This document shows, in pieces, positions 42,080 through 64,000 of a stretch of DNA of 64,000 bases (position 1 is its first letter; the number at the start of each line of letters is the position of its first letter). Made by a program: the position numbers and the translations under genes. The stretch is from the NCBI GenBank assembly GCA_943355005.1, contig CALRDV010000001.1, forward strand, positions 178,059 through 242,058. The letters run 5' to 3'. The notes beneath the pieces were generated by a model. The model saw only the letters and a program-made list of their open reading frames with translations, was not told the origin of the DNA and made no database searches. The stretch is from Patescibacteria group bacterium (GTDB taxonomy: Bacteria; Patescibacteriota; Microgenomatia; UBA1400; MFAQ01).

Positions 42080-42128
42080 AAATAAGACTGGATTATTATC
42101 CAAAACCTCAGTCACATCTAGCCACCAT

Positions 42129-43269: not shown

Positions 43270-43414
43270 TAATAAAAGCTTGTGAGCCATCTGGGACTGG
43301 CACACTTTCGTCGCTATAACTGTCTCATACTTGAGGCTAAATAAGACAAATGAGACAGTATAAAAGGGCAAGGCGAATCGAGAACAATGATATAGATTGA
43401 TATAGTAAAAAGGT

Positions 43415-44206: not shown

Positions 44207-44218
44207 TGCAATAAGTTT

Positions 44219-44845: not shown

Positions 44846-44888
44846 ATCTTACTCTCAGCTTCAACAAACCTCTAGTATTTTTATCTAT
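44843..44888. repeat. Leader repeat copy A (catatcttac...aacaaacctctagtatttt)
   Basis: About 40-bp imperfect direct repeat of 45955..46004. It lies immediately 5' of the start codon of the minus-strand gene. Confidence 0.6.
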
Positions 44889-50900: not shown

Positions 50901-51241
50901 TATTTGTTACAGTCAGAGATAAATTATTTGAAAGATCAAAGTTGCCAAAGATCCAAGGCAACAGAGCTGAAGCAATTCAAAGACTTACAGTTCTCTCTGA
51001 TAACCTGCCCCTAGCAAAGGATTATGCTCTTGACCTAATAAAAGTAATAAAAGAATATGACGATTTGAGCGATGGACAATACAAAGATATTGCTAGAGTC
51101 AAATTAGATAATCTTGATGAAGCATATAAAAAGATTCAAGGGATTGCTCCCGTACAGGTTATTAAGGTTAGTTTGAATAAGGCTGACCAGCTTCAAGGTC
51201 AATCTGAGCTGATTGTACTTAGTCAAGAGTTAAGAGTATGA
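47918..51241 (+). CDS. PLD-family nuclease fused to SNF2-family helicase (1107 aa)
   Basis: N-terminal PLD motif 'YLVHNKSETNQGGDAPGTIFIGSSNLT'. SNF2 motif I 'VVGLGKSIIA', motif II 'IVIDEAHRYRN', motif III 'LTATPFNN' and motif VI 'IQRIGRINR'. Confidence 0.85.
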   Translation: MSIIDNQSQTMLEALRNALSISDRVDIQVGYFYFSGFELLAEELKDKKVRILVGKQIDPNAVPKIIAMQQKTGKPVDLDRFQPQESHSSRSAQKADYFEGFTRLFNETSVFDEPRSQDAYKTFEQKIIDGSLEIKLTNTDEHGKMYLVHNKSETNQGGDAPGTIFIGSSNLTYNGLLDQGELNSVNREKSQFLEGLQKFEAMWSDSDNIDVATIDNQSEFKDVIRKLWINAVERPYLMYIRVLHELFGQDKDTEIKTPSKITGESFIDLEYQLDAIKMGINKIEQYGGVIIADVVGLGKSIIASTIAYNIAHKDNINVIIICPPHLISQWEDYQANFHLPGTKIFSSGKIEEAYNWCFNQQSGPAIIVIDEAHRYRNELTDDYMLLHQLVRSNKDNKVVVLTATPFNNDPKDVFALVKLFQTPGQSTIKSVDNLSIRFRELIQRYKELRNAMRGNKLSEEEVEVEAKDISRELKRLIEPIIIRRSRLDLKRISRYRNNLIKQGIEFAEIDGPTLLEYDLEDLFGLYVTTLEKITDEENGFIGARYKPVTYLSEESREEFVKKYGNQIDVDLVTAQTNLAKFMKRLLVMRFESSKQAFGITLQNMIDSNLFISKWYHEKGQIPVLKKGRIPDPDSYEIDTDDNISEELTEQLEDQPTSKHKLIFVDRNWISPSFIKEVEADTQLLQQIKSDWFEDPKVKDFDPKLDNLTEKIKDLLNENPDKKIIIFSAYADTVDYVGEQLKKKGFMRTFKYTAADASKSYREELKHNFDAGIREELQKNDYDILVATDALSEGYNLHRAGIIFNYDIPFNPTRVIQRIGRINRINKKVFDRLHIYNFFPTSIGEDVTRIKQISMLKMSLINSVVGSDTKTLTDTEELKTFQEDKDVEKLLKAQLKQATDEAEEESWDAIHRDRYDQTPDDVIDKAKTVRPRSRVIRKGQTEEIAIAYGKRGDHSVFAIKHDTEDPIIVSAEQVLPFFVAREDEEGYAPDSEYNKLFVTVRDKLFERSKLPKIQGNRAEAIQRLTVLSDNLPLAKDYALDLIKVIKEYDDLSDGQYKDIARVKLDNLDEAYKKIQGIAPVQVIKVSLNKADQLQGQSELIVLSQELRV

Positions 51242-54200
51242 AATTAAACGAAAAGTACAACAAAGAACAATTTCTTGATTGGTTAGAGGAGTTACTTCCA
51301 GATTTTGAGAGAGACATTAAAAAAGTTGACGTCCCAAGTTCATTTGGTGATGTCAATCTAATTGAGTCGCTCGGCAAAACATCGATAGGCGTCATGGTGT
51401 TTGCAATTCAAATGGAATTTGATCCTACGCGACGTAGAATATCAATCACAAAGGACAGTTTTAATATCTTAAAGAATTATTCAGTTCAAAATGCAATCAT
51501 TGCATACTTTTGTCCAGACTTCGGTCAATGGAGGTTATCTCTACTTACCAGTACCGCTACCTGGGAAGATGGTAGGGTTATTTCAAAATTATCTAACCTT
51601 AAGAGGCAGTCATTTGTACTCGGTGTCGGAGCCAAAACTAAAACTCCTACAAAATATCTTGCTGGTAGGGTTAATAGCTTGGCAGATCTTAAAAAGAGAT
51701 TCTCAATAGAAGTTGTCAATAAAGATTTCTACAAAGAAATATCTACTGCGTTCAATTCTTTGCAGTCAGTACTACAGGTTCCAAGCAAGGAAGCAAAGAG
51801 TCAAACAAATCTTGAATTTTCGGTAAGACTAATTGGAAGAATTATATTCTGTTGGTTCCTTAGAGAAAAGAGGAGTGAGGCGGGAATTTCCTTGATATCA
51901 GATAAGGTACTTTCACTTCAAGCAGTAAAAAGTAGCAAAGACTATTATCACAAGTTGCTTGAACCATTATTTTTTGAGGTTCTCAACAAACCTTTAGAAA
52001 GTAGAAACTTTGATGAGTTCGACAAAGAACCCTTTACCCAAACTCCTTATCTCAATGGTGGTCTTTTTTCCGCCCAATACGATGATTACTACGAACGAGG
52101 CAGAAACGATTTTCAGTCCAAATATCACAATACACTAGTTATCCCAAATAACTGGATCGAGTCGTTATTCGATATACTTGAAACCTACCATTTTACAATC
52201 GACGAGAATACTAGTTATGATGAAGAGCTTTCAATAGACCCTGAAATGCTAGGTCGAATATTTGAAAATCTCTTAGCAGAAATTAACCCTGACACAGGTG
52301 AATCGGCAAGAAAAAGTACTGGTAGTTATTACACTCCAAGAGTAATTGTCGATTATATGGTAGATGAAAGTCTGGCTTTATATCTTAAGAACAAAACAAA
52401 CATTGATGAAGATAAAATCAGGGCTGTAATTAGTTATGACCTTGATGACGATCAGACAAAACCCCTAACAGAAGAAGAAAAAGTAAAAATAATTGACTCC
52501 CTAGGTAAACTAAAGATTCTAGACCCTGCCTGTGGGTCAGGAGCTTTTCCAATGGGTGTTCTTCAAAAAATTGTCTTCATTCTTCAGCAGATAGATCCAA
52601 ACGCAGAAGTCATGCATTCAATGGACTTAAAACAAACTCCTCCAGAATTTAGAAGGCACATACAGGAAGAATTTAGTGCCGGAAACTATGATTATCTGCG
52701 GAAATTAAGAGTAATTAGAGAATGTATTTATGGGGTAGACATCCAACCGATTGCTACTGAAATCTCGAGACTAAGATGTTTCCTAACGCTTGTTGTTGAT
52801 CAGGCAATAAAAGACGATAGGCCAGATAGGGGGATTAAACCCCTTCCAAACCTAGATTTTAAGTTTGTTACAGCAAATACATTAATCGGATTACCAAAAG
52901 TTGATAGCACCTCTCCCTCACTTTTTGATGACTTTAAGCTCATAGATGAGCTTAAACAAGTTCGTGATGATTATTTCAATTCATATGGGATCGAAAGAGA
53001 AAAACTAAAAAACGACTTTTCAGAAAAACAAAACGATTTAATCAACGAATTAATTGAAAAGCATGATTATGTAGGTTACTCAAAAGCTGATCTAACAAGA
53101 AGTTTAACAAGCTGGAAACCGTTTAAACATATAACGACAGAATGGTTCGATGCTGAGTGGATGTTTGGTGTAAAAGACGGTTTTGACATGATAATTGCAA
53201 ACCCACCATATGTTGGAGAAAAAAGTCATAAGGAATTGTTTGATGTTTTGAGAAAATCACCACTAGGAAAACAGTTTGGTAAGGGAAAGATGGACCTTTT
53301 TTACTATTTTTTTCATCACGGGATTAATAATCTAAAAGATGGAGGCACACTTTCTTTTATTACCACGAATTATTATCCGACAGCGGATGGAGCAATCAGC
53401 CTTCGTAGAGATTTTTATAATAGGACTAACGTTGTTGAGCTAATCAACTTCAACGAGTACAAAATATTTGAATCAGCATTAGGTCAGCACAACATGATTA
53501 CTTTGCTGCAAAAAGAAGGTCCAAAAGATAACTTTCTTACAAGTGAAACTTTTGTAACAATCACGGGAGGGCCAAATTCAGAAGAAATTGTAAAAATTCT
53601 TAACCATACTTGCGAAGAATGTGTATATGGAAATATATCTCGCTCAAAATTATATGAAGGTAACAATTATTATCTGAGATTTGTTTCAGGAAAAACTGAA
53701 ACTGATCAACTACTTGAAAAACTGTATTTAAGCGGGAAGCCGCTAATTGAGTTTGCGAATACCAACGAAGGTTTACACACTGGTCTAGATTCGGTATCTG
53801 ACAAAGACCTTCTGAAAACGAAAAACAAAGCCATTACAAAGGGTGAAGAAATATTTGTTGTTACCAAGGGGCGTTACGGCTTTGGCCACCTTCATCCATG
53901 GTTCAAAGGTTCCGACATCAAACACTATGTGGCAAATACAGAATCAAATTATGAGGTTATATATTACGATAACGATACGCATCCAGAGAAAGATGAGCTA
54001 AACCATTTGAGTAAATTTAGAGATCTCCTTGAAAAAAGAGTCGCCATCAAGAGGGCAAACAGGCCTTGGTATCAACTTAATTGGCCAAGAAAACAATCAA
54101 TGTTCGAAGGACAAAAGATAGTAAACCCGTATAGGTCACTTAATAACTATTTTGCTCTAGTTAATACTCCATGGTATGCTTCTGCAGATGTATTTTTCAC

Positions 54201-54531
54201 ACAGACAAAAAATTCAGAATTAATATCGAATGAGGTTTTGACGGCCATCCTTAACAGTAAGTTGGTATTGTTTTGGCTAAAGCATCGAGGCAAACGGAAG
54301 GGTAAAATCTTGGAAATAAAATCGATTCCTATTGGACAAATCCCTATAGTATTACCTGAAGAAGATGATAAGAAGAAGTTGGAATCTTATGTCAAACAAA
54401 TCCTAGAGGTTAAAAAAAATGATTCGGATGCAGATATTTCAATACATCAAAATCACATTGATCGTTTGGTTTATAAAGTCTATGGACTTAATGATATAGA
54501 AATCAAAATTGTGGAGAATTCATTAGCGTAA
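51238..54531 (+). CDS. Eco57I/PglX-like gamma-class N6-adenine DNA methyltransferase with unassigned N-terminal domain and C-terminal target-recognition region (1097 aa)
   Basis: 'YYTPRVIVDYMVDE', motif I 'LDPACGSGAFPMGV' and motif IV 'IANPPYVGEK'. About 350-aa N-terminal extension and about 400-aa C-terminal extension. Start overlaps the stop of the upstream gene (ATGA). Confidence 0.85.
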   Translation: MKLNEKYNKEQFLDWLEELLPDFERDIKKVDVPSSFGDVNLIESLGKTSIGVMVFAIQMEFDPTRRRISITKDSFNILKNYSVQNAIIAYFCPDFGQWRLSLLTSTATWEDGRVISKLSNLKRQSFVLGVGAKTKTPTKYLAGRVNSLADLKKRFSIEVVNKDFYKEISTAFNSLQSVLQVPSKEAKSQTNLEFSVRLIGRIIFCWFLREKRSEAGISLISDKVLSLQAVKSSKDYYHKLLEPLFFEVLNKPLESRNFDEFDKEPFTQTPYLNGGLFSAQYDDYYERGRNDFQSKYHNTLVIPNNWIESLFDILETYHFTIDENTSYDEELSIDPEMLGRIFENLLAEINPDTGESARKSTGSYYTPRVIVDYMVDESLALYLKNKTNIDEDKIRAVISYDLDDDQTKPLTEEEKVKIIDSLGKLKILDPACGSGAFPMGVLQKIVFILQQIDPNAEVMHSMDLKQTPPEFRRHIQEEFSAGNYDYLRKLRVIRECIYGVDIQPIATEISRLRCFLTLVVDQAIKDDRPDRGIKPLPNLDFKFVTANTLIGLPKVDSTSPSLFDDFKLIDELKQVRDDYFNSYGIEREKLKNDFSEKQNDLINELIEKHDYVGYSKADLTRSLTSWKPFKHITTEWFDAEWMFGVKDGFDMIIANPPYVGEKSHKELFDVLRKSPLGKQFGKGKMDLFYYFFHHGINNLKDGGTLSFITTNYYPTADGAISLRRDFYNRTNVVELINFNEYKIFESALGQHNMITLLQKEGPKDNFLTSETFVTITGGPNSEEIVKILNHTCEECVYGNISRSKLYEGNNYYLRFVSGKTETDQLLEKLYLSGKPLIEFANTNEGLHTGLDSVSDKDLLKTKNKAITKGEEIFVVTKGRYGFGHLHPWFKGSDIKHYVANTESNYEVIYYDNDTHPEKDELNHLSKFRDLLEKRVAIKRANRPWYQLNWPRKQSMFEGQKIVNPYRSLNNYFALVNTPWYASADVFFTQTKNSELISNEVLTAILNSKLVLFWLKHRGKRKGKILEIKSIPIGQIPIVLPEEDDKKKLESYVKQILEVKKNDSDADISIHQNHIDRLVYKVYGLNDIEIKIVENSLA

Positions 54532-54749: not shown

Positions 54750-56096
54750 ATGGAAAAACAACTCCGACGGGATATATCCGTCAAATATATAAAAGTTAGC
54801 GAGCTAAACCCTGCGGTCTACAACCCCAGAAAGCACGACAAAAAATCAGCCGACCAGCTGAAAGAAAGTATTACCAAATTTGGATTGGTCGACCCCATTA
54901 TCGTCAACGAGGCAATCGAAAGGAAAAACATCGTCATTGGTGGTCATTTCCGTTTGGAGGTTGCCAAAGAAATGGGTTTCGAAACAATTCCTGTCGTCTA
55001 CGTCAAAATTCCTGATATTGAGAAAGAAAAGGAGCTAAATCTCAGGTTAAATAAAAATACTGGTGAGTGGGATTGGGAATTACTCGCTAACTACGATTCA
55101 GCCTTTTTGGACTGCGTTGGTTTTAGTAGTGAAGAAATCGACCAAATCTTCGACATCGAAGATACTCCAGAGCAATTCGACCTTCAGAAAGAACTTGAAA
55201 AGCTCAATATCACTGAGATAAATATCAAGAAAGGTGATATTTACGATCTAGGTGGAAGTAGATTGATGTGTGGAGACTCTACAAATGAAGATGAATGGCT
55301 GAAGTTAATGGACGGTGAAAAGGCGGATATGTGTTTTACCGATCCACCTTACATTCTTGACTATTTAAAAACAAAGCGACACGGTAAGGCAGTCACAGGA
55401 TTTGGATCCAAGCGAGATAGACGCTACCTAGAAACTGAAAGCCTTCCAATTGACTTCACAGAAAAGTGGATGAAGAGTATTGCCAATATCCAAAAAGAGC
55501 ATTTCTCCATAATAGTTTATGAAAATTGGAAAAACTTAAGAACCATTTGGGGCGAGATGGAGAAACATTGGAAAGTGAAAAACATGATCGTTTGGCATTT
55601 ACCAAATCGTCACCAAGGTTTTTCATCTAAATATAAGTTCTTTAGTAAACACGATATTGCCATGGTGGGTGCATCCAAAAATGTTGATATCGAGTACAAC
55701 AACGAGGAGGAGATTGATGGTCTTCAAGAAGAATACGAAACAGCTCTCTATGCCATCTCTGGTAAACCACAATGGGAAGGTTACGAGAAAGGGAAGAAAA
55801 CCCAACCAACAGATTTCATCGAGTTCAATGCCTCTGACGAAAAACATTCCGGTCAGGGTGTTGTGTTTGGTACAAAGCCAACTGAGATACTGATTCCCTA
55901 TATCAAAGTTCTCACTAAACGAGGCGACTTAATTGTCGAACCTTTTGGTGGCAGTGGCTCAACCTTAATTGCGGCAACCAAGATGAAGCGCCGTTGCTAC
56001 TTAATGGAGAAGTCACCTGTCTATGCAGAAGTTATTAAAAGTCGTTGGGAAAAACTAACTGGGCTAAAAGCAAAGCTCTATGAAAAGCAAGATTGA
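54750..56096 (+). CDS. ParB-like nuclease domain fused to DNA methyltransferase (beta-class N4/N6)
   Basis: ParB box 'GGHFRLEVAKEMG'. Methyltransferase motif IV 'CFTDPPYIL' precedes motif I 'EPFGGSGSTLIAA'. Confidence 0.85.
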   Translation: MEKQLRRDISVKYIKVSELNPAVYNPRKHDKKSADQLKESITKFGLVDPIIVNEAIERKNIVIGGHFRLEVAKEMGFETIPVVYVKIPDIEKEKELNLRLNKNTGEWDWELLANYDSAFLDCVGFSSEEIDQIFDIEDTPEQFDLQKELEKLNITEINIKKGDIYDLGGSRLMCGDSTNEDEWLKLMDGEKADMCFTDPPYILDYLKTKRHGKAVTGFGSKRDRRYLETESLPIDFTEKWMKSIANIQKEHFSIIVYENWKNLRTIWGEMEKHWKVKNMIVWHLPNRHQGFSSKYKFFSKHDIAMVGASKNVDIEYNNEEEIDGLQEEYETALYAISGKPQWEGYEKGKKTQPTDFIEFNASDEKHSGQGVVFGTKPTEILIPYIKVLTKRGDLIVEPFGGSGSTLIAATKMKRRCYLMEKSPVYAEVIKSRWEKLTGLKAKLYEKQD

Positions 56097-56370
56097 TGTC
56101 CTTAAACATCTAAAATCTACGCCGATAGTGCAGGTGGCTTGTCAAAAGGCAGGTGTTAGTCGAGCCACCTACTATCGATGGCGTGAAGAAGATCCAGATT
56201 TTAAGAAAAAGTCAGATATCGCTATGGGGGAAGGGATAGAGATGGTAAATGATTTGTGTGAATCTCAATTATTAAAAAATATTAGAGATGGGCATCCGAC
56301 CTCTACTTTTTACTGGCTAAACAATCACCATCCCAGTTACTCCCAAAGAAGAATCTTGCTGCCGTATTAG
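56080..56370 (+). CDS. small HTH DNA-binding protein (terminase-small-subunit/excisionase-like)
   Basis: 'VACQKAGVSRATYYRWREEDPDF' is a helix-turn-helix motif. It overlaps the methyltransferase gene end. Confidence 0.5.
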   Translation: MKSKIDVLKHLKSTPIVQVACQKAGVSRATYYRWREEDPDFKKKSDIAMGEGIEMVNDLCESQLLKNIRDGHPTSTFYWLNNHHPSYSQRRILLPY

Positions 56371-56652
56371 GAAAAGTCAGACATTGGAGAAAGTATTGCA
56401 GGGTTTAAGAGAGATAATCTGATGATAACGCTACTAAACATGGTGTTTGAAGGTCAATTACCAATAAGTGTGGCTGGTTCACTAATGAACTCAGTTACTA
56501 AACACCAAAAACATAAAGACAGCCAGGAAATGGATGAAAGTGTGGAGCAGTTGAGACAGTTAATAAATGCTGTTTCAACAGAGTCCAGAGCTGAAACAAA
56601 AAGGAAACTTTCGGGCTAGACTTCCACAGACCTTGCGGTACATTGATTAGTA

Positions 56653-57978
56653 ATGGATACATCCACAAAAACACAAGAAATAAACTACTGTCTCTACGCT
56701 CGCAAGTCTTCCGAAAGTGACGAAAGACAAATTATGTCGATTGATTCTCAAATCGACGAAATGAAGGTACTTGCCAAGAGAGAAAACATAAAAGTAAAAG
56801 AAATAAAAATAGAAAGTCACTCCGCAAAAGAGTCAGGAGCCAGACCAGTATTTGTCGAGTTGATAAAAGGAATACGCTCCGGAAAGTTTAACGGAATACT
56901 CACGTGGGCACCAGATCGTTTAAGCCGTAACGCAGGTGATCTAGGTACACTAGTGGACCTCATGGACCAGAAGAAACTACTCCGCATCCAAACATATAGC
57001 CAATCATTTACCAATAGTCCAAATGAAAAATTTCTGCTGATGATCCTCTGCTCTCAGGCAAAGCTAGAAAATGATAACAAAGGAGTAAATGTCGAAAGGG
57101 GGCTGAGAAATAAATGTAGTTTGGGATGGAAACCCAGTCTCGCTCCCATGGGATATCTCAATCAAAAAGGAGATGGTCGAACCGACGAGTTAGTAGTCCT
57201 TGATCCGGTAAGAGCACAATTTGTAAAACAAATGTTTGAAAGAGTGGGTGTCCAAGGACAAAGCGGCAGAGCGGTAAAAAGATGGTTAGATAGAATTGGC
57301 TTTGAAACAAGACAGGGTGTTATGTGTCCCCTGAGTAAGGTTCATACAATTCTCCGAAACCCTTTCTACTACGGAGAGTTTGAATTCCCGGCCGGAAGTG
57401 GCATCTGGTACAAGGGAAAGCACAAACCACTAATATCCAAAGAGCTGTTTGAAAAAGTCCAAAAACAGTTGGAAACAGTCCCTAAGACCTGGAATAAAAA
57501 TATCTTTGCATTTAAGACCCTCATGAAGTGTGGCTCATGCGGTAGTAGTGTGACCGCTGAGGAAAGATACAGAAGATTAAAGAGTGGTGGGTATCATAAG
57601 CATATCTATTACCATTGCAGAAGATATTTGAATTACGAATGCAAAGAGCCATACATCGACGAGGATGATTTAATTAAGCAGATAATCGCCAATCTTGACA
57701 AGATCTCCTTCAACCAAGCAGGAATATCCCGGAAAATCCAAGAGGACATCGAGAGATACCATCGACTAAAAACCGATGTGCTTCGCCAAGAGTATATGTT
57801 GGGAAAATTTGACGGAGATAACGGCATTATTCCCGGGAAACTTGAATTCAAAGCAATGGCAAAAAATTATCTGATCCATATTCTCAGGGGAGGAACGTCG
57901 GAAGAAAGACTAGAAGTATTATCCTTGATAAAGACACGATTCATTCTCCATGATAAAAAAGTTAGTATTAATGCTTGA
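56653..57978 (+). CDS. large serine recombinase
   Basis: N-terminal resolvase-type catalytic region 'YCLYARKSSESDERQIMSIDSQ'. Recombinase zinc-ribbon 'CGSCGSS...YYHCRRY'. Coiled-coil C-terminus. Confidence 0.8.
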   Translation: MDTSTKTQEINYCLYARKSSESDERQIMSIDSQIDEMKVLAKRENIKVKEIKIESHSAKESGARPVFVELIKGIRSGKFNGILTWAPDRLSRNAGDLGTLVDLMDQKKLLRIQTYSQSFTNSPNEKFLLMILCSQAKLENDNKGVNVERGLRNKCSLGWKPSLAPMGYLNQKGDGRTDELVVLDPVRAQFVKQMFERVGVQGQSGRAVKRWLDRIGFETRQGVMCPLSKVHTILRNPFYYGEFEFPAGSGIWYKGKHKPLISKELFEKVQKQLETVPKTWNKNIFAFKTLMKCGSCGSSVTAEERYRRLKSGGYHKHIYYHCRRYLNYECKEPYIDEDDLIKQIIANLDKISFNQAGISRKIQEDIERYHRLKTDVLRQEYMLGKFDGDNGIIPGKLEFKAMAKNYLIHILRGGTSEERLEVLSLIKTRFILHDKKVSINA

Positions 57979-58990
57979 AATTGGCTACTTTACCGTATTC
58001 TTCTTTGTCCCTCATTTTTGATGCTAAAAAATTTATCCACGCTTGGGAGTATCTGTAATCGTTCTCGGCAGATTTATATTCAACAATCTCTGATTTATAG
58101 TTAAGCCTCTTTTCTTGTGGGCGAACTTTATAAAATTTCCATGCTTTGGTGTGCATACCAGTTCCAAAATCAATTTTGGCTATTCTAGCTACTTCAGACG
58201 CTACATGAGATGGTCGATATATGTAAATATCTTCACCCACCAAGATCTTTTGTCTTTTAACTGCTGAAACTGGCACCGCCTGTAATTCTCCTACTAACTT
58301 AAGAGTCGGAGATCCGTTTTTTTCAGTAAAGTCACCTTCTCGTATGAATTTAAGTTTGGGAATTAGTTCTTCACCAATCACTACAGTTCCACCATTTCCA
58401 GAAATTTCCCCATTCAGAGTATTCATTACAGCAACATTTATGGGGTTAATTTGTGCAGATTTTGTAATTACTCTTCTCCACGCGTCGTTCTGCTTTTCAA
58501 TTTGTTTATCGAGCAATTTTCTGAGTTCTGGGAAATGTATTTTTTCCGATCTCGCACGATATCTAAAATAGATCTCTCCCTCTTTAATGTCTCCGTCATT
58601 TTTTGTTGCAATTATTGGCTTTGTTTCTGACTCAGATGTATATATCAAACCAAATGTTTTTCCATCCAAATCATAAACATCTACCTCCCATTCAATAGCT
58701 GGTTGAAAAATATCGTTAAGTTCAGCAGTGAATCTTTCTTGGCTGAATGTATCAAAATTCGATCTATCAATTCCGATAATTTCTCTTGGGTCATCCTTTA
58801 TACCAAATACGATATAGCCACCTTTGTTGTTGGCAAAAGCCGCCATCGTTTTGGCGTACTCACCAACACTTCCAATAGAAAATGTCTCTTTAAATTCAAG
58901 AGTTAAAGATTCTCTAGACCCAATTAAACTTGGATTTTGAGAGTTTTTATAGAATATATCTGATAGCTTTTCGCTTGAAAAGTTGTTCAA
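57968..58990 (-). CDS. AlbA_2 (Schlafen-like) DNA-binding domain protein
   Basis: 'ESLTLEFKETFS...MAAFANNKGGYIVFGIKDD' matches the AlbA_2/divergent-AAA Schlafen core. Confidence 0.6.
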   Translation of the reverse strand: MNNFSSEKLSDIFYKNSQNPSLIGSRESLTLEFKETFSIGSVGEYAKTMAAFANNKGGYIVFGIKDDPREIIGIDRSNFDTFSQERFTAELNDIFQPAIEWEVDVYDLDGKTFGLIYTSESETKPIIATKNDGDIKEGEIYFRYRARSEKIHFPELRKLLDKQIEKQNDAWRRVITKSAQINPINVAVMNTLNGEISGNGGTVVIGEELIPKLKFIREGDFTEKNGSPTLKLVGELQAVPVSAVKRQKILVGEDIYIYRPSHVASEVARIAKIDFGTGMHTKAWKFYKVRPQEKRLNYKSEIVEYKSAENDYRYSQAWINFLASKMRDKEEYGKVANFKH

Positions 58991-59228
58991 TTTAGGGCAA
59001 TTATAACAACCAATAACAACCCTTACGGGACTCGAACACGATTTTCAATCAATTTAGAAAAAATTTAGTCGGATACATCAATACAACGAAGCGACCCTTG
59101 CGGATCGCCTCGGAACAAACTGAACTTAGTGAGCGTAGTTGCCCGTAGGTGGAACTTTATTCTTCCCAGTCTTCTAGGTACTTTCATAAAGCTTCAAAAA
59201 CTAGGTTTTACCTACGAGAACAATACAG

Positions 59229-59765
59229 GTGTTATTTTACCCCATTTATCTGGGAAAAAGGAGGACCATGAATAATCTTCTGGTTTTTTGTATCAAAAAA
59301 TGGCTACACCTATCACCTGATCTGGTTGAGTCCCGACTATTTGATGAAGAGAGTTTCTACAAACAGTTCAGAGACGACTTACGCCACGCCAAGAAAGAAG
59401 TCATCATTGAGAGCCCATTTATCTCAACCAACCGCATGTATTCCCTCCTAGCGCCATTTGAAGAGCTAGTTCGTAGGAAGGTTAAGGTTTATGTATTTAC
59501 TCGTCATCCTGACGAACACGATCTGGGCATGAAACAGCAGGCGGAATCGGCAATTCGGAGATTTGAAGCTATGGGAGTGCAAGTACTCATAACGACTGAT
59601 TACCACCACCGAAAGATTGCTATCTTGGATAGGAATGTCTTATGGGAAGGAAGTCTAAATATACTATCTCAGACTTGTAGCCGTGAAATTATGCGCCGGA
59701 TAGACAGCGATAGCCTATCAAAAGAAATGTTTGAATATTTGAAGCTAAATAGATTTATATACTAA
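59229..59765 (+). CDS. Nuc-like single-HKD PLD-family endonuclease
   Basis: 'YHHRKIAILDRNVLWEGSLNI' is a canonical HxK(x)4D(x)6GSxN motif. 178 aa, the size of dimeric Nuc/BfiI-N-type nucleases. Confidence 0.7.
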   Translation: MLFYPIYLGKRRTMNNLLVFCIKKWLHLSPDLVESRLFDEESFYKQFRDDLRHAKKEVIIESPFISTNRMYSLLAPFEELVRRKVKVYVFTRHPDEHDLGMKQQAESAIRRFEAMGVQVLITTDYHHRKIAILDRNVLWEGSLNILSQTCSREIMRRIDSDSLSKEMFEYLKLNRFIY

Positions 59766-59769
59766 AAAT

Positions 59770-59952
59770 ATGGACAAAATTGATGAAATTCGCGAACTAA
59801 TACTGAAAAATAATATTGAAATGAACGATGATGAAATTCAGACAACCGTCGCGGAATTACAGTATTTGATTGATCTCTGGCTCAACAACATCGAACAGCA
59901 AGTATTTGAAGGTAAAACGCTGGATGAACTACTTATAGATATGAATCTATGA
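59770..59952 (+). CDS. small protein (60 aa) translationally coupled to recombinase
   Basis: Its stop overlaps the recombinase start by 4 nt. Possible recombination directionality factor. No motif. Confidence 0.3.
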   Translation: MDKIDEIRELILKNNIEMNDDEIQTTVAELQYLIDLWLNNIEQQVFEGKTLDELLIDMNL

Positions 59953-61418
59953 AACAGACACAAAAGAACGCAATTCTCTACCTTCGAGTATCTACCGAAG
60001 AGCAGGTAGATAATTACTCGCTAGGTACGCAAGAAGAAGTGTGTCGGCGAGAAATGGATCGACTGGGATATATCGTTACCCAAGTATTTCGCGAGGAAGG
60101 CAAATCTGCCAAAACCATCACTGGGCGTGTTGAGTTGATTAGGCTTCTGGAGTATTGCAGGCGACACTCTAAAGATGTCCAAGCCGTCGTATTCTATAAA
60201 ACAGATCGATTATCGAGACAGATGACTGATTACCTTGTTATCAAAGAGAAATTGAGTCTCATGGGAATTAAGCTTATTTCAGCAACCGAACCATTTGACG
60301 ATTCCCCTATGGGCAAATTTATCGGTAATTTCTATGCTGGGATTGCACAACTGGATAACGAAATGAAAAGTGAACGAGCGAGAAATGGGATGCATGCTCG
60401 ATTTCAGTCTGGTCTGGTTTGTTCCGGCAGAGCTCAGTTGGGATATGTCCGGCACGAAGGACACGTGTTTAAGGATACCAAGACTTGGGATAAAGTCAAA
60501 AAGGCATGGGATCTCATGGCTACGGGGACAATGTCTATACGAGAGATGATGAATATTATGAATGACTGGGGTTTGCGAGTATCTATCAATCAACAAGAAT
60601 ATCTCCTACGTAAGCAAACTGTGCATAGAATATTTCGATCAAAATTCTATACAGGTATTCTCGTATCCAAGCGGTACAACGAAGAAGTTCGTGGTCAACA
60701 TGAGGCGATGATATCGAAAGAATTGTTTGAAAAAGTCCAAGTAATACTCGATGGCAGGCACAATAAATCATCACTCGTTATTCGCAATAAACCGAACGGA
60801 AATTTTCCGTTTCGACGGTTGGTAAAGTGTGGTAAATGCGGATATGGATTTACCTCTGGATGGTGCAATGGTCATGCCAAGAAGTTTGCTTATTATTGGT
60901 GTTACAAATCTCAGTTATGCCGTTCTCGGTACGTACAAGCTAAATTTCTTCACTTTGATTTAGATATAATATTAAAGAAGACAAAGCTCTCTACATTGGG
61001 TCGCGAAATCATACAAATATTACTAGAAGAAGAATATGGCAAACGATATTCTAAAATCAGACTTCAGAGGGCAAAACGAGAACAATTAATAGGCAAGCTT
61101 ACTGCAATGCGGACTAATCTCGTCCAAAAACATTTATCTGGTCTTTATACTGATGAGATATTTTCTGAACAGAATACGTTGCTATCAGCGAATATCGATC
61201 GTCTCAAGATATCGACGAACATTACAGCGCTAAAGGAATATACTCTGTCAGTCTGCAAGGAATATGTGGATTCACGACTAGACAATATCTTTGTCACCTA
61301 TACTAATTTGGCAGTCGATAATCAGAAAGCTATTCTAAGCACCATATTCCCACTCGGTTTCGTATGGCAATATCCCGGATTAACATATCCTAAAATAAAT
61401 CCTTTGTTTGAGGTATAA
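59949..61418 (+). CDS. large serine recombinase
   Basis: 'AILYLRVSTEEQ' carries the catalytic Ser. Recombinase domain and zinc ribbon 'CGKCGYGF...YYWCYKS'. Coiled-coil C-terminus. Confidence 0.9.
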   Translation: MKQTQKNAILYLRVSTEEQVDNYSLGTQEEVCRREMDRLGYIVTQVFREEGKSAKTITGRVELIRLLEYCRRHSKDVQAVVFYKTDRLSRQMTDYLVIKEKLSLMGIKLISATEPFDDSPMGKFIGNFYAGIAQLDNEMKSERARNGMHARFQSGLVCSGRAQLGYVRHEGHVFKDTKTWDKVKKAWDLMATGTMSIREMMNIMNDWGLRVSINQQEYLLRKQTVHRIFRSKFYTGILVSKRYNEEVRGQHEAMISKELFEKVQVILDGRHNKSSLVIRNKPNGNFPFRRLVKCGKCGYGFTSGWCNGHAKKFAYYWCYKSQLCRSRYVQAKFLHFDLDIILKKTKLSTLGREIIQILLEEEYGKRYSKIRLQRAKREQLIGKLTAMRTNLVQKHLSGLYTDEIFSEQNTLLSANIDRLKISTNITALKEYTLSVCKEYVDSRLDNIFVTYTNLAVDNQKAILSTIFPLGFVWQYPGLTYPKINPLFEV

Positions 61419-61644
61419 TTATCCCGATGAGAGCAAAAGCAGGCAATTATCAGATCACGGAAAAAGATATTGACGTGGTTCTGCGCTTTCTTAAAGCCAC
61501 CGATCCAGAACACGCTACGCCTGAAATGGCGATTGAAATACTCGAACATCTCCATACTACGTTTCACACCATGAGCCACACCGATCCAGATGCTTTAGCG
61601 AAAATTTACGAAGATCTCAAAAAACAAAAAGAACTGAGTCGAAA

Positions 61645-61923
61645 TTAAAAGGTAAGTACCTCGGAAGATTTAATCCCTAGCGCTCCTAATACTTTTTTTA
61701 GCGTTATCACAGAAGGAATAGCCTCACCACGTTCCACCTTAGAGTAATAGTTGCTATTTAGTCCTGCTTTGTTGGCCACATCCGACTGCTTCATCCCCTT
61801 TTGCAGGCGGTATTGCTTGAGCTTTGAAGCTATTTCGAGACGTGTTTTATTATCTTTGTCGGTATGCATATCTGGGGATAGTATAACATTATGAGGGACC
61901 AGACCAAAATGCTTTGATCTCAT
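61645..61923 (-). CDS. XRE-family HTH transcriptional regulator
   Basis: 'LRLEIASKLKQYRLQKGMKQSDVANKAGLNSNYYSKVERGEAIPSVITLKKVLGALG' is an XRE-family HTH. Confidence 0.75.
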   Translation of the reverse strand: MRSKHFGLVPHNVILSPDMHTDKDNKTRLEIASKLKQYRLQKGMKQSDVANKAGLNSNYYSKVERGEAIPSVITLKKVLGALGIKSSEVLTF

Positions 61924-62164
61924 TTCATTCGAGTGAGTAGAAGACTATTCTCTTGGGGAGCAAAGCAAAATAGAAATCAGATCTAATAATTAACTCGAGA
62001 AAAGAGTAAAATACGTTCATGCTGATTATTGAGCTCTGGCTTAGCCTGTTCCGCAAAAGATTGGCGTATGTTATTAAAAATTCAATGGTGGGGATATGAA
62101 TGTATATTGAGGATACGTATGCGCATTATTCTTTTCGCCACAAAAAACAAAGTAGAATATACTT

Positions 62165-63619
62165 ATGAAAATTAAGCAGAGTCCGCCTTATGCACCCCTA
62201 CTCATAGAATCAATGCGTTCACTAGGTTACTCTTTCGACACTGCTATTGCCGATCTTATTGACAATAGCGTAAGTGCACAAGCTAAGAGTATAAATATTT
62301 TACTCGATCCGTCTGATAATCCACAACTAATCATTTTCGATGACGGTAACGGCATGGACGCTATTACACTAGAAGAAGCTCTCAGATTTGGTAGTAGAGG
62401 ACCGCTTGAAAAACGCAATGAGTTTGATCTTGGTCGATTCGGTCTTGGATTAAAGTCTGCGTCACTTTCCCAGTGCAGACGGTTGGTGGTGGCGAGTAAG
62501 CACGACGGTGCTTTAAGTTGCTTCTCTTGGGATTTGGATGAAGTTGAAAAGACTGGTGACTGGTCAGTGCTAGAATATTCACAAGAGGAGATTAGCAAGC
62601 TTCCATCGATCGATCTTTTTGATTCTGTTGAATCCGGTACATACGTATTGCTACAAAATTTTGACCGAATTTCAGCTTCATCACACGACGTAAAAAAGAC
62701 ATTGGATACGCTAATTGAGATTGCCGAAGACCACTTATCATTAGTATTTCATCGAATAATTGCTGAAGATCGAGTTACAATAGCCATCAATGGTAGACCA
62801 ATCGCATCCAAAGACCCTTTCTTAGAAAATCATAAATCTACTCAACGTCTCCGAGAGCAAAGCATCAACATCGACGACAAAAAGATCACACTTCAACCTT
62901 ACATCCTGCCACACAGAAGCAAACTTTCTAGGGAAGATTTGCGTAAAGTAGGAGGTGCTGAAGATCTGCGCACAAATCAGGGTTTTTATATCTACCGTTG
63001 CAAGAGACTAATTATTTGGGGCACTTGGTTCAGATTGCTAAGTAAAGAAGAATTGAACAAGCTTGCGCGAGTAAAAGTAGATATTCCAAATTCGCTTGAT
63101 GAAATTTGGAGCATTGACGTTAAGAAAAGCACTGCGAACTTACCTGATAAAATTAGAAAAAATCTCTACGGCAGTATTAAAGAATCCATATTTGGAAGTA
63201 AAAAAGTAATTGAATATCGTGGCAAGCTCAATCGGGACGAAGACATTACCTATATTTGGCAACGACTAACTGAAAGAGACGGAAGTGTAACGTATTCAAT
63301 CAATCGTGACTTGCCTCAAATCCAGATTCTAACGAACAGCTTTGATCAAACGGGACAACGTGTTTTAGAAACACTACTAGAAAATATTGAAGATAATTTT
63401 CCTGCAAGTAGTGTTTATCTAGATGTTGCAGATGGTGAGATTAGTACAGTCTTAAAAGACAACCAGAAGATTGTAGATGATTTTGAAGAGCAACTTACTT
63501 TTGCAGATAAATTAGGCATATCTCGAGATGAATTGATCAATATGCTTTTGAAAACAGAACCGTACGCAAGTAATGATGACCTTAAAGAAATGTATAATAA
63601 TCATCAGGTAGACTTATGA
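62165..63619 (+). CDS. GHKL-superfamily ATPase (HATPase_c_3, MORC-like)
   Basis: Bergerat-fold N box 'IADLIDNSVSAQA', G1 'IFDDGNGMD' and G2 'GRFGLGLKSAS'. Confidence 0.75.
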   Translation: MKIKQSPPYAPLLIESMRSLGYSFDTAIADLIDNSVSAQAKSINILLDPSDNPQLIIFDDGNGMDAITLEEALRFGSRGPLEKRNEFDLGRFGLGLKSASLSQCRRLVVASKHDGALSCFSWDLDEVEKTGDWSVLEYSQEEISKLPSIDLFDSVESGTYVLLQNFDRISASSHDVKKTLDTLIEIAEDHLSLVFHRIIAEDRVTIAINGRPIASKDPFLENHKSTQRLREQSINIDDKKITLQPYILPHRSKLSREDLRKVGGAEDLRTNQGFYIYRCKRLIIWGTWFRLLSKEELNKLARVKVDIPNSLDEIWSIDVKKSTANLPDKIRKNLYGSIKESIFGSKKVIEYRGKLNRDEDITYIWQRLTERDGSVTYSINRDLPQIQILTNSFDQTGQRVLETLLENIEDNFPASSVYLDVADGEISTVLKDNQKIVDDFEEQLTFADKLGISRDELINMLLKTEPYASNDDLKEMYNNHQVDL

Positions 63620-64000
63620 CAGAAGACGTAAAGACATTCAAAAGAATCGTTCAAGACCTGCTAGACAAACATAGCGCCAAGGATTCGATAAGTGATACTT
63701 TGATTGACGAACAGGTGGAGAAGACATTCGCTGCAAAAGATGTCCTTGGGATGGTTATATCCGAAGATGAGAAAAAGTTTGTTCGCAATGAGTTGCTTGC
63801 TGACAACAAAATCCGTCTTGAGCCAGGCGTTGCGATTGTTCCTCGAACTCACAAAAAATGGTTTGCTGAACGGAAGCCAGTGATAGATTTGGATTATTGG
63901 AATCGATTCAAAGAGCTCCTTGTTAAGGATAAGGGATTCCCCCTCAATGTTGTTGCCGAAATGGACAATGTTTCTGATGAGATCGTTGATTTATTGGGTG
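63616..64000 (+). CDS. partner gene of GHKL ATPase, 5' portion only (window end)
   Basis: Its ATG overlaps the TGA of the upstream gene (ATGA). The reading frame stays open for 128 codons to the window edge. It is not in the supplied track because it is truncated. Confidence 0.5.
   Translation, partial: MTEDVKTFKRIVQDLLDKHSAKDSISDTLIDEQVEKTFAAKDVLGMVISEDEKKFVRNELLADNKIRLEPGVAIVPRTHKKWFAERKPVIDLDYWNRFKELLVKDKGFPLNVVAEMDNVSDEIVDLLG

What the first reader, a model, noticed from the sequence alone, without database searches (positions are those of the whole stretch)
54750..64000. Integrative mobile element with two large serine recombinases, ParB-methyltransferase, Nuc-like PLD nuclease, Schlafen-like AlbA_2 protein and XRE regulator
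Two large serine recombinases sit in this stretch: 'YLRVSTEEQ' at 59949 and a diverged one at 56653. Each is preceded by a small coupled ORF. The small HTH protein at 56080 and the 60-aa ORF at 59770 are possible directionality factors. Around them are a ParB-methyltransferase fusion of the orphan type typical of phages and plasmids, a single-HKD Nuc-like endonuclease, an AlbA_2 protein, an XRE repressor-like regulator and a GHKL ATPase. The stretch from about 47 kb to the window end looks like an integrated element or prophage remnant carrying anti-restriction and defense cargo. Its right boundary is beyond the window.
Basis: partly seen in the sequence, partly recalled or inferred. Interest (0 to 1): 0.55.

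Follow-up and report, generated by a model that had tools for sequence, protein, structure and literature searches.

The report
Tandem serine-recombinase islands at a tRNA
The stretch holds two separate mobile gene islands, each with its own large serine recombinase and each loaded with anti-phage defence genes, parked one behind the other at the end of a tRNA-Glu gene in what is probably a candidate-phyla-radiation bacterium; serine recombinases were not thought to use tRNA genes as landing sites.

Summary
The reading as one element with two recombinases does not hold.

LSR1 (56653-57978) belongs to a very large family whose usual core is ParB-methyltransferase, TerS, TerL and the recombinase, followed by a minus-strand tRNA gene. 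In the window TerL is missing. The "HTH protein" and the "small coupled ORF" are two halves of one TerS-like gene cut by an in-frame TAG.

LSR2 (59949-61418) sits in a 2.76-kb module (PLD nuclease, 60-aa ORF, LSR2, 73-aa ORF, XRE; 59129-61889). The module has the same sharp ends in six unrelated contexts, each with different defence genes to its right.

The 134 nt left of the module are 91-95% identical to sequence that, in close relatives, abuts the 3' end of an intact tRNA-Glu. So the LSR2 island is inserted exactly at that tRNA end, behind the LSR1 island.

In 59 of 64 more distant LSR2 relatives the recombinase ORF runs into an antisense tRNA gene. These relatives are flanked by a T4SS coupling protein and a Replic_Relax protein, which points to conjugative or mobilisable islands.

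The right end was not reached within 19 kb beyond the window. Verdict: a real integrative system and a new variant of a known kind.

The parts
47918..54531 (+). Cargo of the LSR1 island: a PLD-SNF2 helicase-nuclease (47918-51241) and an Eco57I/type IIG-like N6-methyltransferase (51238-54531).
   Evidence: Pfam and PADLOC. The pair is colinear at about 80% nt identity with relative L167. In L170 other restriction-modification genes take its place.
54750..56096 (+). ParB_N-N6/N4 DNA methyltransferase, the first gene of the conserved LSR1-family core.
   Evidence: Pfam and phrog_498 at 4.5e-84. Found upstream of LSR1 homologues in 64 of 93 loci that have at least 4.5 kb of upstream sequence.
56080..56619 (+). 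Terminase-small-subunit-like gene broken by an in-frame TAG at 56368-56370.
   Evidence: PHROG TerS hits. It is 83% identical over 179 aa to the intact ORF of L167, with a stop at codon 97. TerL, which follows TerS in 56 of 93 relatives, is absent here without trace.
56653..57978 (+). LSR1, a large serine recombinase of 441 aa.
   Evidence: All three LSR domains are present. The catalytic residues R17, S19, D88, R89 and R92 are invariant or nearly invariant in the family alignment. More than 8000 homologues were found. In 67 of 67 loci the first downstream tRNA is on the opposite strand.
57968..58990 (-). Schlafen/AlbA_2 protein, a cargo gene inserted between LSR1 and the tRNA flank.
   Evidence: Pfam and PADLOC PDC-S19 at the C-terminus. 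It is absent at this position in L167 and L170, replaced by two other genes in L087, and present at 57% identity in L107.
58999..59128 (-). Orphaned 3' flank of a tRNA-Glu gene, including the tRNA's terminator-like hairpin (59087-59112, minus strand).
   Evidence: It is 91-95% identical to L167-L171 and 77% identical to L087. In L170 and L087 it directly abuts the 3' end of an intact tRNA-Glu (in L171 the contig ends within the tRNA). The hairpin was found.
59124..59132 (.). Left junction (attL) of the LSR2 island. The sequence ...ACTTA|GTGA retains the last 4 nt of the tRNA and is followed by island DNA.
   Evidence: Three states occupy one site. Empty (L170, L087): ACTTAGTGACCCCGG, continuing into the tRNA. 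Window: ACTTAGTGAGCGTAG. L167-L169: ACTTAGTAGAGACCG.
59129..59267 (+). Conserved non-coding leader at the left end of the island (presumed P' arm plus control region). It holds an invariant inverted repeat, CGTAGGTGGAAC (59144-59155) and GGTTTTACCTACG (59203-59215).
   Evidence: Homology starts sharply at GTGAGCG in five contexts. A sixth context, L244, aligns from 59148. The repeat is invariant and shows no covariation.
59268..59765 (+). Single-HKD, Nuc-like PLD nuclease.
   Evidence: Pfam PLDc_2 and the HKD motif. It is part of the module in all members with at least 53% LSR identity.
59770..59952 (+). 60-aa acidic helical protein, translationally coupled to LSR2. It is a candidate recombination directionality factor or accessory factor.
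   Evidence: It lies immediately upstream of the LSR in most of the 80 family loci, down to 42% LSR identity. The AlphaFold2 model is helical with pLDDT 85. Foldseek, PHROGs and PADLOC gave no match.
59949..61418 (+). LSR2, a large serine recombinase of 489 aa.
   Evidence: Pfam. R13, S15, four cysteines and other residues are invariant or nearly invariant in the family alignment. The family-wide tRNA association is shown.
61427..61648 (+). 73-aa three-helix protein of unknown role, specific to the module.
   Evidence: Conserved in L004, L006, L007, L036 and L244. AlphaFold2 pLDDT 80.
61645..61889 (-). XRE-family regulator (61645-61869), followed by the right edge of the conserved 2.76-kb module at about 61889.
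   Evidence: Pfam HTH_3. The same right breakpoint, ATAGTATAnCA, occurs in six contexts.
62165..64000 (+). Start of the variable defence cargo: MzaB (62165-63619) and the beginning of MzaC/Z1 (63616 onward).
   Evidence: PADLOC MzaB. Beyond the window lie MzaC, MzaD and MzaE, a C5 methyltransferase and a methyl-directed restriction enzyme.

Best explanation
Window 46-64 kb, and at least 19 kb beyond it, is a tandem array of two unrelated integrative islands at the 3' end of a tRNA-Glu gene. The genome is most likely a Patescibacteria (CPR) genome.

Island 1. Its left end is unmapped. It includes at least 47.9-59.0 kb. It belongs to a family whose conserved core is ParB-methyltransferase, TerS, TerL and LSR1, lying beside a tRNA 3' end. 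Variable restriction-modification and defence cargo sits upstream of the core, and sometimes between LSR1 and the tRNA. The window copy is decayed: TerL is gone and TerS carries a nonsense codon. LSR1 itself is intact.

Island 2. It starts exactly at 59129, within the last 4 nt of the tRNA. It is a later insertion between island 1 and the tRNA.
- Its left end is a conserved control and integration module: leader, PLD nuclease, 60-aa partner protein, LSR2, 73-aa protein, and a convergent XRE repressor.
- Next to XRE comes a hot spot of exchangeable defence systems. Here these are Mza, a C5 methyltransferase with a methyl-directed restriction enzyme, and PDC-S19.
- After that comes backbone shared with relatives: DUF2779, and a DsbA/P-type-ATPase block.

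Inferred mechanism. LSR2 recombines an attP, formed by joining the island's two ends, with an attB that spans the discriminator/CCA end of the tRNA. XRE keeps the operon off. The 60-aa protein biases the reaction towards excision. Transfer of relatives uses a coupling protein, a Replic_Relax protein and a T4SS.

Shown: gene content, module boundaries, the three-state junction, and the family-wide tRNA adjacency. Inferred: recombination activity, the roles of the small proteins and XRE, the crossover dinucleotide, and the right end.
For: 1. Three states of one site. The 134-nt flank (58999-59130) is followed by an intact tRNA-Glu in L170 and L087 (L171's contig ends within it), by the LSR2 module in the window, and by a third unrelated sequence in L167-L169. 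The three diverge within 2-4 nt of the tRNA 3' end.
2. The module 59129-61889 has the same right breakpoint in six contexts and the same left breakpoint (GTGAGCG) in five, the sixth aligning from 59148. The contexts are L004/5, L006/8, L007, L036, L244 and the window. Flanks are unrelated, and different defence systems lie to the right each time.
3. Backbone is shared further right. DUF2779 is 81% identical (aa) with L036. The 169-aa/DsbA block is 84.6% identical (nt) with L007, lying after 13.5 kb of cargo in the window and 2.9 kb in L007.
4. In the wider LSR2 family, 59 of 64 loci have a minus-strand tRNA 3' end 31-65 nt after the last aligned LSR residue. In all 59 the LSR ORF reads 12-259 nt into the tRNA. 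Fourteen tRNA identities are used.
5. LSR pairs at least 70% identical share the tRNA type in 64% of cases, against about 12% for more distant pairs.
6. Conserved neighbours in the wider family are a TrwB/TraG-like coupling protein (50 loci), Replic_Relax (46 loci), VirB4, T4SS pilin and DUF2958. In the PLD subfamily these genes lie to the right of the LSR: VirB4 and M23 in L009, DUF2958 in L004 and L036.
7. In the LSR1 family, 67 of 67 first downstream tRNAs are on the minus strand, and only 3 tRNAs lie upstream. TerS, ParB-MTase and TerL are present in 65, 64 and 56 of 93 loci.
8. The commonest domains among 126 cluster-representative ORFs taken from the up-to-7-kb upstream of ParB-MTase are defence and restriction-modification domains.
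9. Both recombinases are full length with intact catalytic residues.
Against: - The tRNA-Glu body and a P arm that should close island 2 were not found in the 21.5 kb to the right of the module. No tRNA, no T-arm remnant and no further recombinase were found there.
- No conjugation gene lies in the window or its extension.
- In the PLD subfamily the LSR sits at the tRNA-distal end, the opposite of the wider family. The geometry is therefore extrapolated, not observed at both ends.
- LSR1's own junction is not mapped. The 134 nt could be native tRNA flank rather than island DNA.
- LSR1 is syntenic next to tRNA-Glu in relatives at only 78-83% nt identity. That fits long residence rather than recent movement.
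- All data come from metagenome assemblies. The window spans the join of two MEGAHIT contigs at 44829-44969.
- Host assignment rests on record names, which conflict. The closest loci are titled 'uncultured Gammaproteobacteria/Pseudomonadales', while the more distant ones are titled as CPR lineages.
Confidence: 0.65

Rival explanations
1. The 2.76-kb module (59129-61889) is itself the whole mobile element, a minimal serine-recombinase island. The defence genes to its right belong to other, later insertions or to the host.
For: The same right end occurs in six contexts and the same left end in five (the sixth aligns from 19 nt further in), with unrelated DNA on both sides. The module encodes a recombinase, a candidate directionality factor and a repressor, which is enough for integration and excision.
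Against: A tRNA-targeting mini-element should have the tRNA body directly to its right in at least some copies. None of the six contexts does. The right end does not resemble the sequence next to the tRNA in the wider family. No integrase that could have brought in the right-hand genes lies within 21 kb. Backbone genes recur to the right in relatives.
Confidence: 0.15
2. It is one composite element in which the two recombinases work together, as CcrA and CcrB do in SCCmec.
For: The two intact LSR genes lie 2 kb apart on the same strand.
Against: The two are only about 25% identical and belong to separate families. Neither family carries the other as a regular neighbour in about 230 loci. Close relatives have LSR1 followed by the tRNA with no LSR2 (L170, L087). 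Others have LSR2 with no LSR1 (L004, L006, L007, L036, L244). A tRNA flank with its terminator lies between the two genes.
Confidence: 0.04
3. The recombinases are grounded or domesticated. The islands no longer move, and the variability comes from homologous recombination and gene turnover in a defence hot spot next to a tRNA.
For: LSR1 is syntenic with tRNA-Glu across relatives at 78-83% nt identity. TerL is lost and TerS is broken in the window. The right end was not found. Paralogous family members within one genome are only 65-69% identical at the nt level, so there has been no recent burst of copies.
Against: Both recombinases are full length with all catalytic residues. Three different states break at the same 2-4 nt at the tRNA end. 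That is the signature of site-specific recombination, not homologous recombination. The families use at least 14 different tRNA types with constant geometry.
Confidence: 0.13
4. LSR1 with ParB-MTase and the terminase genes is the remnant of an ordinary temperate phage of this host.
For: TerS and TerL are phage packaging genes. Sixty-seven family loci lie in contigs that IMG/VR calls viral.
Against: TerL is followed directly by the recombinase and then the tRNA, not by portal and capsid genes. The 200 ORFs upstream of ParB-MTase fall into 133 clusters, and their commonest domains are restriction-modification and defence domains. No structural-protein family is among the top 25. The four-gene core recurs across dozens of loci with variable surroundings, which is not how random prophage decay looks.
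Confidence: 0.1

Closest known systems
Serine-recombinase ICEs and IMEs of Firmicutes (Tn5397/TndX, Tn4451/TnpX, streptococcal serine-integrase elements)
   Same: A large serine recombinase serves as integrase of a conjugative or mobilisable island. In LSR2 relatives, relaxase-like and coupling-protein genes lie next to the integrase. Cargo is variable.
   Different: The known elements insert into protein-coding genes or low-specificity sites. Reviews state that tRNA 3' ends are the domain of tyrosine integrases (PMC4383910; PMC5704250). Here the target is the extreme 3' end of tRNA genes. The host is probably CPR. The candidate relaxase is a Replic_Relax (PF13814) protein. The window copy shows no transfer genes.
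Tycheposons of Prochlorococcus (bioRxiv 10.1101/2020.12.28.424599)
   Same: tRNA-targeting cargo islands in a streamlined genome. They come in cargo-carrying and satellite-like (TerS or capsid) forms, stack in tandem at one tRNA, and build variable genomic islands.
   Different: 910 of 937 tycheposons use tyrosine recombinases. The replication modules typical of tycheposons were not seen here. The LSR1 core carries both TerS and TerL together with a ParB-methyltransferase.
Phage satellites (PICI, cf-PICI, and PLE of Vibrio cholerae)
   Same: A small integrated island with an integrase and terminase gene(s) but no full virion module, carrying defence functions. PLE also uses a large serine recombinase.
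   Different: No primase/replicase, no helper-sensing regulator and no capsid-remodelling genes were identified. Carrying TerS and TerL together without capsid genes matches no described satellite type. Helper dependence is untested. The window copy has lost TerL.
Defence hot spots inside mobile elements (P2/P4 hot spots, pipolins, SXT ICE hot spots)
   Same: A conserved backbone surrounds one position where unrelated defence systems are swapped. Six contexts carry six different sets directly next to XRE.
   Different: The backbone is a serine-recombinase module, and the host phylum is different.
SSV-type integrases and mycobacteriophage integration-dependent immunity
   Same: In the wider LSR2 family the crossover lies inside the 3' end of the integrase ORF. 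The protein's C-terminal tail therefore differs between the integrated and excised states.
   Different: Those systems use tyrosine recombinases, or place attP in the repressor gene. The window's own LSR2 ends before the junction, so the feature applies to relatives only.

Membership tests
Large serine recombinase (serine integrase) | N-terminal resolvase catalytic domain with nucleophilic Ser and the conserved Arg/Asp residues | tested here: met
   PF00239: 1.2e-18 for LSR1 and 4.6e-28 for LSR2. R13 and S15 (LSR2) and D88, R89 and R92 (LSR1) are invariant in the family alignments; R17 and S19 of LSR1 are nearly invariant (at least 90%).
Large serine recombinase (serine integrase) | Recombinase domain followed by a zinc-ribbon domain | tested here: met
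   PF07508 is present in both. PF13408 scores 2.9e-10 in LSR1. In LSR2 it scores only 8.8e-4, below Pfam's cut-off, but C294, C297 and C318 are invariant and C324 nearly invariant in the family alignment.
Large serine recombinase (serine integrase) | Catalyses attP x attB recombination with a 2-bp crossover | not testable with these tools
   Only the left junction of the LSR2 island is mapped.
tRNA-integrated genomic island | An occupied site and an empty site at the same tRNA in related genomes | tested here: met
   The L170 and L087 sites are empty. The window and L167-L169 are occupied by different DNA, all sharing the 134-nt flank.
tRNA-integrated genomic island | Both ends defined, with the tRNA gene at one junction | tested here: not met
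   No tRNA or tRNA fragment was found from 61.9 to 83.4 kb. The island may extend further.
Integrative conjugative or mobilisable element | Relaxase, coupling protein and/or T4SS genes inside the element | tested here: inconclusive
   None was found in the window plus 19 kb. They are present beside LSR2 relatives: coupling protein in 50 loci, Replic_Relax in 46 loci, and VirB4 next to PLD-subfamily member L009.
Temperate prophage | Capsid, portal and tail genes within the integrated unit | tested here: not met
   None was found in 44-83 kb. None is among the top 25 Pfam families of 126 cluster representatives from the region upstream of ParB-MTase in LSR1 loci.
Phage satellite (PICI-like) | Integrase plus packaging gene(s), without a full virion module | tested here: inconclusive
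   The family core has TerS and TerL. In the window TerL is missing and TerS is interrupted.
Phage satellite (PICI-like) | Own replication module and helper-induced excision | not tested
   No primase or replicase was noticed among the commonest neighbouring families. Induction cannot be tested here.
SCCmec-type paired recombinases (CcrAB) | Two LSR genes co-conserved as an adjacent pair | tested here: not met
   The two families do not co-occur in about 230 loci.
Mza defence system (cargo) | MzaB (GHKL ATPase), MzaC (Z1), MzaD (DUF4420) and MzaE (AIPR) in one operon with a cytosine methyltransferase | tested here: met
   PADLOC scores: MzaB 1.6e-76, MzaC 6.1e-121, MzaD 1e-18, MzaE 1e-71. A C5 methyltransferase is adjacent.

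The most novel reading that the evidence does not exclude
Patescibacteria harbour two very large, lineage-specific families of large serine recombinases that have taken over the tRNA-3'-end niche held elsewhere by tyrosine integrases. One family (LSR2-like) is the integrase of conjugative or mobilisable islands that carry the coupling protein, and in some loci T4SS genes, of Patescibacteria. Its Replic_Relax protein would be the 'missing' relaxase. That would mean these T4SS-related genes are, at least partly, still mobile-element genes. The other family (LSR1-like) drives terminase-bearing, satellite-like islands. Together they would be the main vehicles of defence systems in these small genomes.
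Probability: 0.4. Interest if true: 0.8.

Novelty: new variant of a known kind. Interest (0 to 1): 0.6.

Why it matters
Three reasons.

1. Target choice. The Islander database paper (2014) and an IME review (2017) state that tRNA genes are targets of tyrosine integrases, and that serine integrases are not known to use them. Here two serine-recombinase families, with hundreds to thousands of members, sit at tRNA 3' ends with constant geometry. This also gives a large pool of recombinases with short, conserved and predictable target sites.

2. The T4SS of Patescibacteria. A 2025 study concluded that this T4SS mostly lacks relaxases and has probably been co-opted for another use. The recurrent block of Replic_Relax, coupling protein, LSR and tRNA makes it directly testable whether these genes lie on integrative conjugative or mobilisable islands.

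3. Defence in CPR genomes. CPR genomes rarely carry CRISPR. These islands show how restriction-modification, Mza, CBASS-like and other systems are stored and exchanged in such genomes.

Tried and rejected
- Direct and inverted repeat search over window 52-64 kb plus 9.6 kb found only chance-level matches.
- A search for an inverted-repeat partner of the island's left end across 44-83 kb found nothing.
- Searches of 44-83 kb for a tRNA-Glu copy or a T-arm motif found nothing relevant.
- Rfam on 44-64 kb at E<=1 gave no hits. RNAalifold on the conserved leader gave invariant pairs only and no covariation.
- tblastn of both recombinases against PLSDB plasmids gave only matches below 30% identity, which were uninformative.
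- AlphaFold2 and Foldseek on the 60-aa protein gave a helical model but no PDB match. The 73-aa protein gave a three-helix bundle.
- An invertible-segment (phase-variation) reading was dropped because no inverted repeats flank any segment.
- The idea that the MEGAHIT contig break at 44829-44969 marks the left island boundary cannot be supported. Window proteins from 4-35 kb also lie on a 326-kb NCBI contig that I could not read.
- The contig was extended twice to the right. A third extension was not possible because the look-ups were exhausted.
- The 115 nt of the third insert in L167 match nothing in any fetched locus.

Full report
**1. The observation**

- ParB_N-N6_N4 methyltransferase, 54750-56096.
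- A small HTH ORF, 56080-56370.
- LSR1, 56653-57978, with Resolvase, Recombinase and Zn_ribbon_recom domains.
- An AlbA_2 protein, 57968-58990 on the minus strand.
- A PLD nuclease, 59268-59765, with one HKD motif.
- A 60-aa ORF, 59770-59952, overlapping the LSR2 start by ATGA.
- LSR2, 59949-61418.
- An XRE regulator, 61645-61869 on the minus strand.
- A GHKL ATPase, 62165-63619.

Upstream lie a PLD-SNF2 helicase (47918-51241) and an Eco57I/type IIG-like methyltransferase (51238-54531). Family alignments show that both recombinases keep their catalytic residues. The window contains no tRNA gene.

**2. Source and extension**

- The right part of the window is 100% identical to ENA metagenome contig k141_2119755, 202 kb.
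- The left part comes from contig k141_147785. The two MEGAHIT contigs overlap by 141 nt at window 44829-44969.
- I extended the sequence 19.35 kb to the right. In order, it holds MzaC, MzaD and MzaE, a C5 methyltransferase, a methyl-directed AspBHI-like restriction enzyme (PADLOC), DUF2779, DUF3644 (PDC-S19), DsrE, DUF305, DsbA-like proteins, a cysteine desulfurase, a P-type ATPase and YtkA.
- That stretch holds no tRNA, no further recombinase and no phage structural gene.

**3. The host**

- Homologues of both recombinases that carry an organism name are mostly Patescibacteria/CPR: Shapiro-, Levy-, Roizman-, Davies-, Woese-, Berkel- and Saccharibacteria.
- Many of the closest loci come from records titled 'uncultured Gammaproteobacteria' or 'Pseudomonadales'. 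They have the same gene families and the same 36-41% G+C.
- I take the host to be CPR. I flag that this rests on record names.

**4. LSR1 and its family**

- More than 8000 homologues were found.
- I fetched 152 loci from JGI metagenomes, IMG/VR and ENA. The usual order is ParB-methyltransferase, terminase small subunit, terminase large subunit (phrog_38, 1.6e-86), LSR1.
- Of 93 loci with enough upstream sequence, 65 have TerS, 64 have ParB-MTase, 56 have TerL, and 13 have TerS without TerL.
- In all 67 loci where a tRNA lies downstream, the first one is on the opposite strand. It lies 95 nt to several kb after LSR1. Only three tRNAs occur upstream in all loci together.
- Clades use the same tRNA. 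The window's clade (66-90% identity) uses tRNA-Glu; the clade at 53-60% mostly uses tRNA-Ser.
- The DNA upstream of ParB-MTase is highly variable: 200 ORFs fall into 133 clusters. Its commonest domains are type I, IIG and III restriction-modification, SWI2/SNF2, AbiEii/OLD-like ATPases, SMODS with S_4TM, and Mza. No capsid, portal or tail family is among the top 25.
- Sixty-seven family loci lie in IMG/VR contigs, against one for LSR2.

In the window the core is decayed:
- TerL is absent without trace.
- The 'HTH protein' and the '65-aa ORF' are one 179-aa TerS-like gene. It is intact in L167 (83% identical) and is cut here by an in-frame TAG at 56368-56370.
- The ORF in front of LSR1 is therefore not a coupled accessory gene.
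- AlbA_2 is cargo. It is absent between LSR1 and the flank in L167 and L170, replaced by two other genes in L087, and present in L107.

**5. LSR2 and its module**

- Close relatives (67-83% nt identity) share one block, window 59129-61889: leader, PLD, 60-aa ORF, LSR2, 73-aa ORF, XRE.
- The right breakpoint is the same in all of L004/L005, L006/L008, L007, L036 and L244. The left breakpoint (GTGAGCG) is the same in all but L244, which aligns from 59148. Nothing is shared on either side next to the block.
- Directly right of XRE the content differs each time:
  - the window: Mza;
  - L004: an OLD-family nuclease, a type III-like restriction-modification system and a diversity-generating retroelement;
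  - L006: HEPN_AbiV, SIR2 with a HerA-like protein, and a type III-like system;
  - L036: a Ser/Thr kinase and an NgoFVII restriction-modification system;
  - L007: four unknown ORFs;
  - L244: a caspase-like protease, ThsB_TIR and a type I restriction-modification system.
- Further right, pieces of backbone recur. DUF2779 is 81% identical (aa) with L036. The 169-aa/DsbA block is 84.6% identical (nt) with L007. It follows 13.5 kb of cargo here and 2.9 kb there.
- The 60-aa ORF is conserved directly upstream of the recombinase in most of the 80 family loci, down to 42% LSR identity. PLD, the 73-aa ORF and XRE are specific to the closer subfamily.

**6. The junction**

- The 134 nt to the left of the module (58999-59130) are 91-95% identical to sequence in L167-L171 and 77% identical to L087, all just downstream of LSR1 homologues.
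- In L170 and L087 this sequence runs straight into the 3' end of an intact minus-strand tRNA-Glu: ...ACTTA|GTGACCCCGG... L171 reads the same way until its contig ends within the tRNA.
- In the window it runs into the module: ...ACTTA|GTGAGCGTAG...
- In L167-L169 it runs into a third, unrelated sequence...ACTTAGT|AGAGACCG....
- The flank carries a terminator-like hairpin on the tRNA's strand, 59087-59112.
- One site therefore exists in three states that diverge within the last 2-4 nt of the tRNA. This is the expected picture for site-specific insertion with a very short crossover. It also explains why no att repeats are found.

**7. The wider LSR2 family**

- Among 64 loci at 42-47% identity with enough downstream sequence, 59 have a minus-strand tRNA whose 3' end lies 31-65 nt (31-40 nt in 57 of them) after the last aligned recombinase residue.
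- In all 59 the recombinase ORF continues 12-259 nt into the antisense tRNA. The junction therefore lies inside the 3' end of the gene. Fourteen tRNA identities are used.
- Pairs of recombinases at least 70% identical share the tRNA type in 64% of cases, against about 12% for more distant pairs.
- The conserved upstream neighbours are a TrwB/TraG-like coupling protein (50 loci) and a Replic_Relax protein (46 loci). Less often there are DUF2958, VirB4, T4SS pilin, an M23 peptidase, heavy-metal P-type ATPases, DsbA-like proteins and retroelement reverse transcriptases.
- These are hallmarks of integrative conjugative or mobilisable elements.
- In the PLD subfamily such genes lie to the right of the recombinase: VirB4 and M23 in L009, DUF2958 in L004 and L036. 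This fits an island whose body extends rightwards from the module, as in the window.

**8. Interpretation**

The best reading is two independent islands stacked at one tRNA-Glu.
- The first is an older, partly decayed LSR1 island with restriction-modification and AlbA_2 cargo.
- The second is an LSR2 island inserted between the first island and the tRNA. Its left end is mapped to the nucleotide. A defence hot spot sits next to its XRE gene.
- The roles of XRE (repressor) and the 60-aa protein (directionality or accessory factor) are inferred from position and conservation only. Structure prediction and fold search gave nothing specific.
- The leader holds an invariant inverted repeat, 59144-59155 and 59203-59215. 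It may be a protein-binding site.

Main weaknesses:
- The right end and the tRNA body were not reached.
- No transfer genes lie in the sequence at hand.
- LSR1's own junction is unmapped.

Rivals considered are a 2.76-kb mini-element, a single element with two recombinases, grounded islands, and a prophage remnant. They are weighed in the fields above.

**9. Comparison with the literature**

- A review of integrative mobilisable elements says that tyrosine integrases use tRNA 3' ends, while serine-recombinase elements disrupt dispensable genes (PMC5704250).
- Tycheposons stack at tRNAs, but 910 of 937 use tyrosine recombinases.
- A 2025 survey of the Patescibacteria T4SS found few relaxases and does not mention recombinases or tRNAs (PMC12102498).
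- Full-text searches pairing serine recombinases with Patescibacteria or Saccharibacteria found nothing on such islands.
- I could not read the later TIGER mapping paper (doi 10.1093/nar/gkaa156). Isolated earlier reports of tRNA-targeting serine integrases cannot be excluded.

**10. Verdict**

The anatomy is different and more interesting than proposed. I rate it a new variant of a known kind, with interest 0.6.

Noticed in passing
window 44829-44969: The window spans the 141-nt overlap of two MEGAHIT k141 contigs of ENA ERZ27280309: k141_147785 to the left and k141_2119755 to the right. Proteins from 4-35 kb also lie on a 326,620-nt NCBI contig. The join could be an assembly-graph branch point.
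   Followed up: partly
window 19143-29099: A second stretch packed with defence-type genes, with low G+C (0.32-0.35). It holds a Dam-like D12 methyltransferase, DUF6996/DUF6997, an N6_N4 methyltransferase, a PLD+ResIII/SNF2 helicase, an SMC-like AAA_15 ATPase with a small dnd-associated protein, and Mrr_N-DUF4357. It has no recombinase.
   Followed up: partly
window 38380-45963: More defence-like or orphan genes lie left of the finding: a two-HKD NgoFVII-like PLD protein, a DEAH/HA2 helicase, DUF5677, and a 360-aa FtsK-gamma/FtsK_SpoIIIE protein (44881-45963, minus strand). The FtsK-like protein could be a DNA translocase of an element. The left end of the LSR1 island may lie somewhere in this region.
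   Followed up: no
loci L012-L086 (for example L012, L017, L034): In 59 of 59 wider-family loci that have an adjacent tRNA, the LSR ORF has its stop codon 12-259 nt inside the antisense tRNA gene. The recombinase's C-terminal tail must therefore differ between the integrated and excised states.
   Followed up: partly
window 59144-59155 and 59203-59215: An invariant inverted repeat, CGTAGGTGGAAC / GGTTTTACCTACG, sits in the 139-nt leader of the LSR2 module. The leader is conserved at least as well as the neighbouring coding DNA. Its function is unknown; it could be an operator or a recombinase-binding site.
   Followed up: partly
window about 59029-59045 (minus strand): A tRNA T-arm-like fragment (GTTCGAGTCCCGTAAGGG) lies inside the conserved 134-nt flank. 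ARAGORN does not call it. It may be a relic of an older junction.
   Followed up: no
loci L167, L168, L169 (L167:11814-11928): A third, unidentified insert occupies the same tRNA-Glu end. In the MAFFT alignment its first 60 nt or so show scattered matches to the left end of the LSR2 module. All three contigs stop about 115 nt into the insert.
   Followed up: partly
loci L182, L188, L191, L199, L204, L239; L214: Some LSR1-family islands carry two tandem TerL genes. L214 has two convergent LSR1-family genes back to back. Several IMG/VR contigs carry two LSR1 copies.
   Followed up: no
loci L007, L010-L012, L014, L015, L017 and others: Many records holding these CPR-type islands are titled 'uncultured Gammaproteobacteria' or 'Pseudomonadales', including a 1.61-Mb chromosome, OZ246394.1. 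The titles look like placeholder taxonomy, but I could not verify this.
   Followed up: no
L004:19853-21250; several wider-family loci: Diversity-generating retroelement genes (bAvd plus a reverse transcriptase) and DUF2958 recur inside these islands.
   Followed up: no
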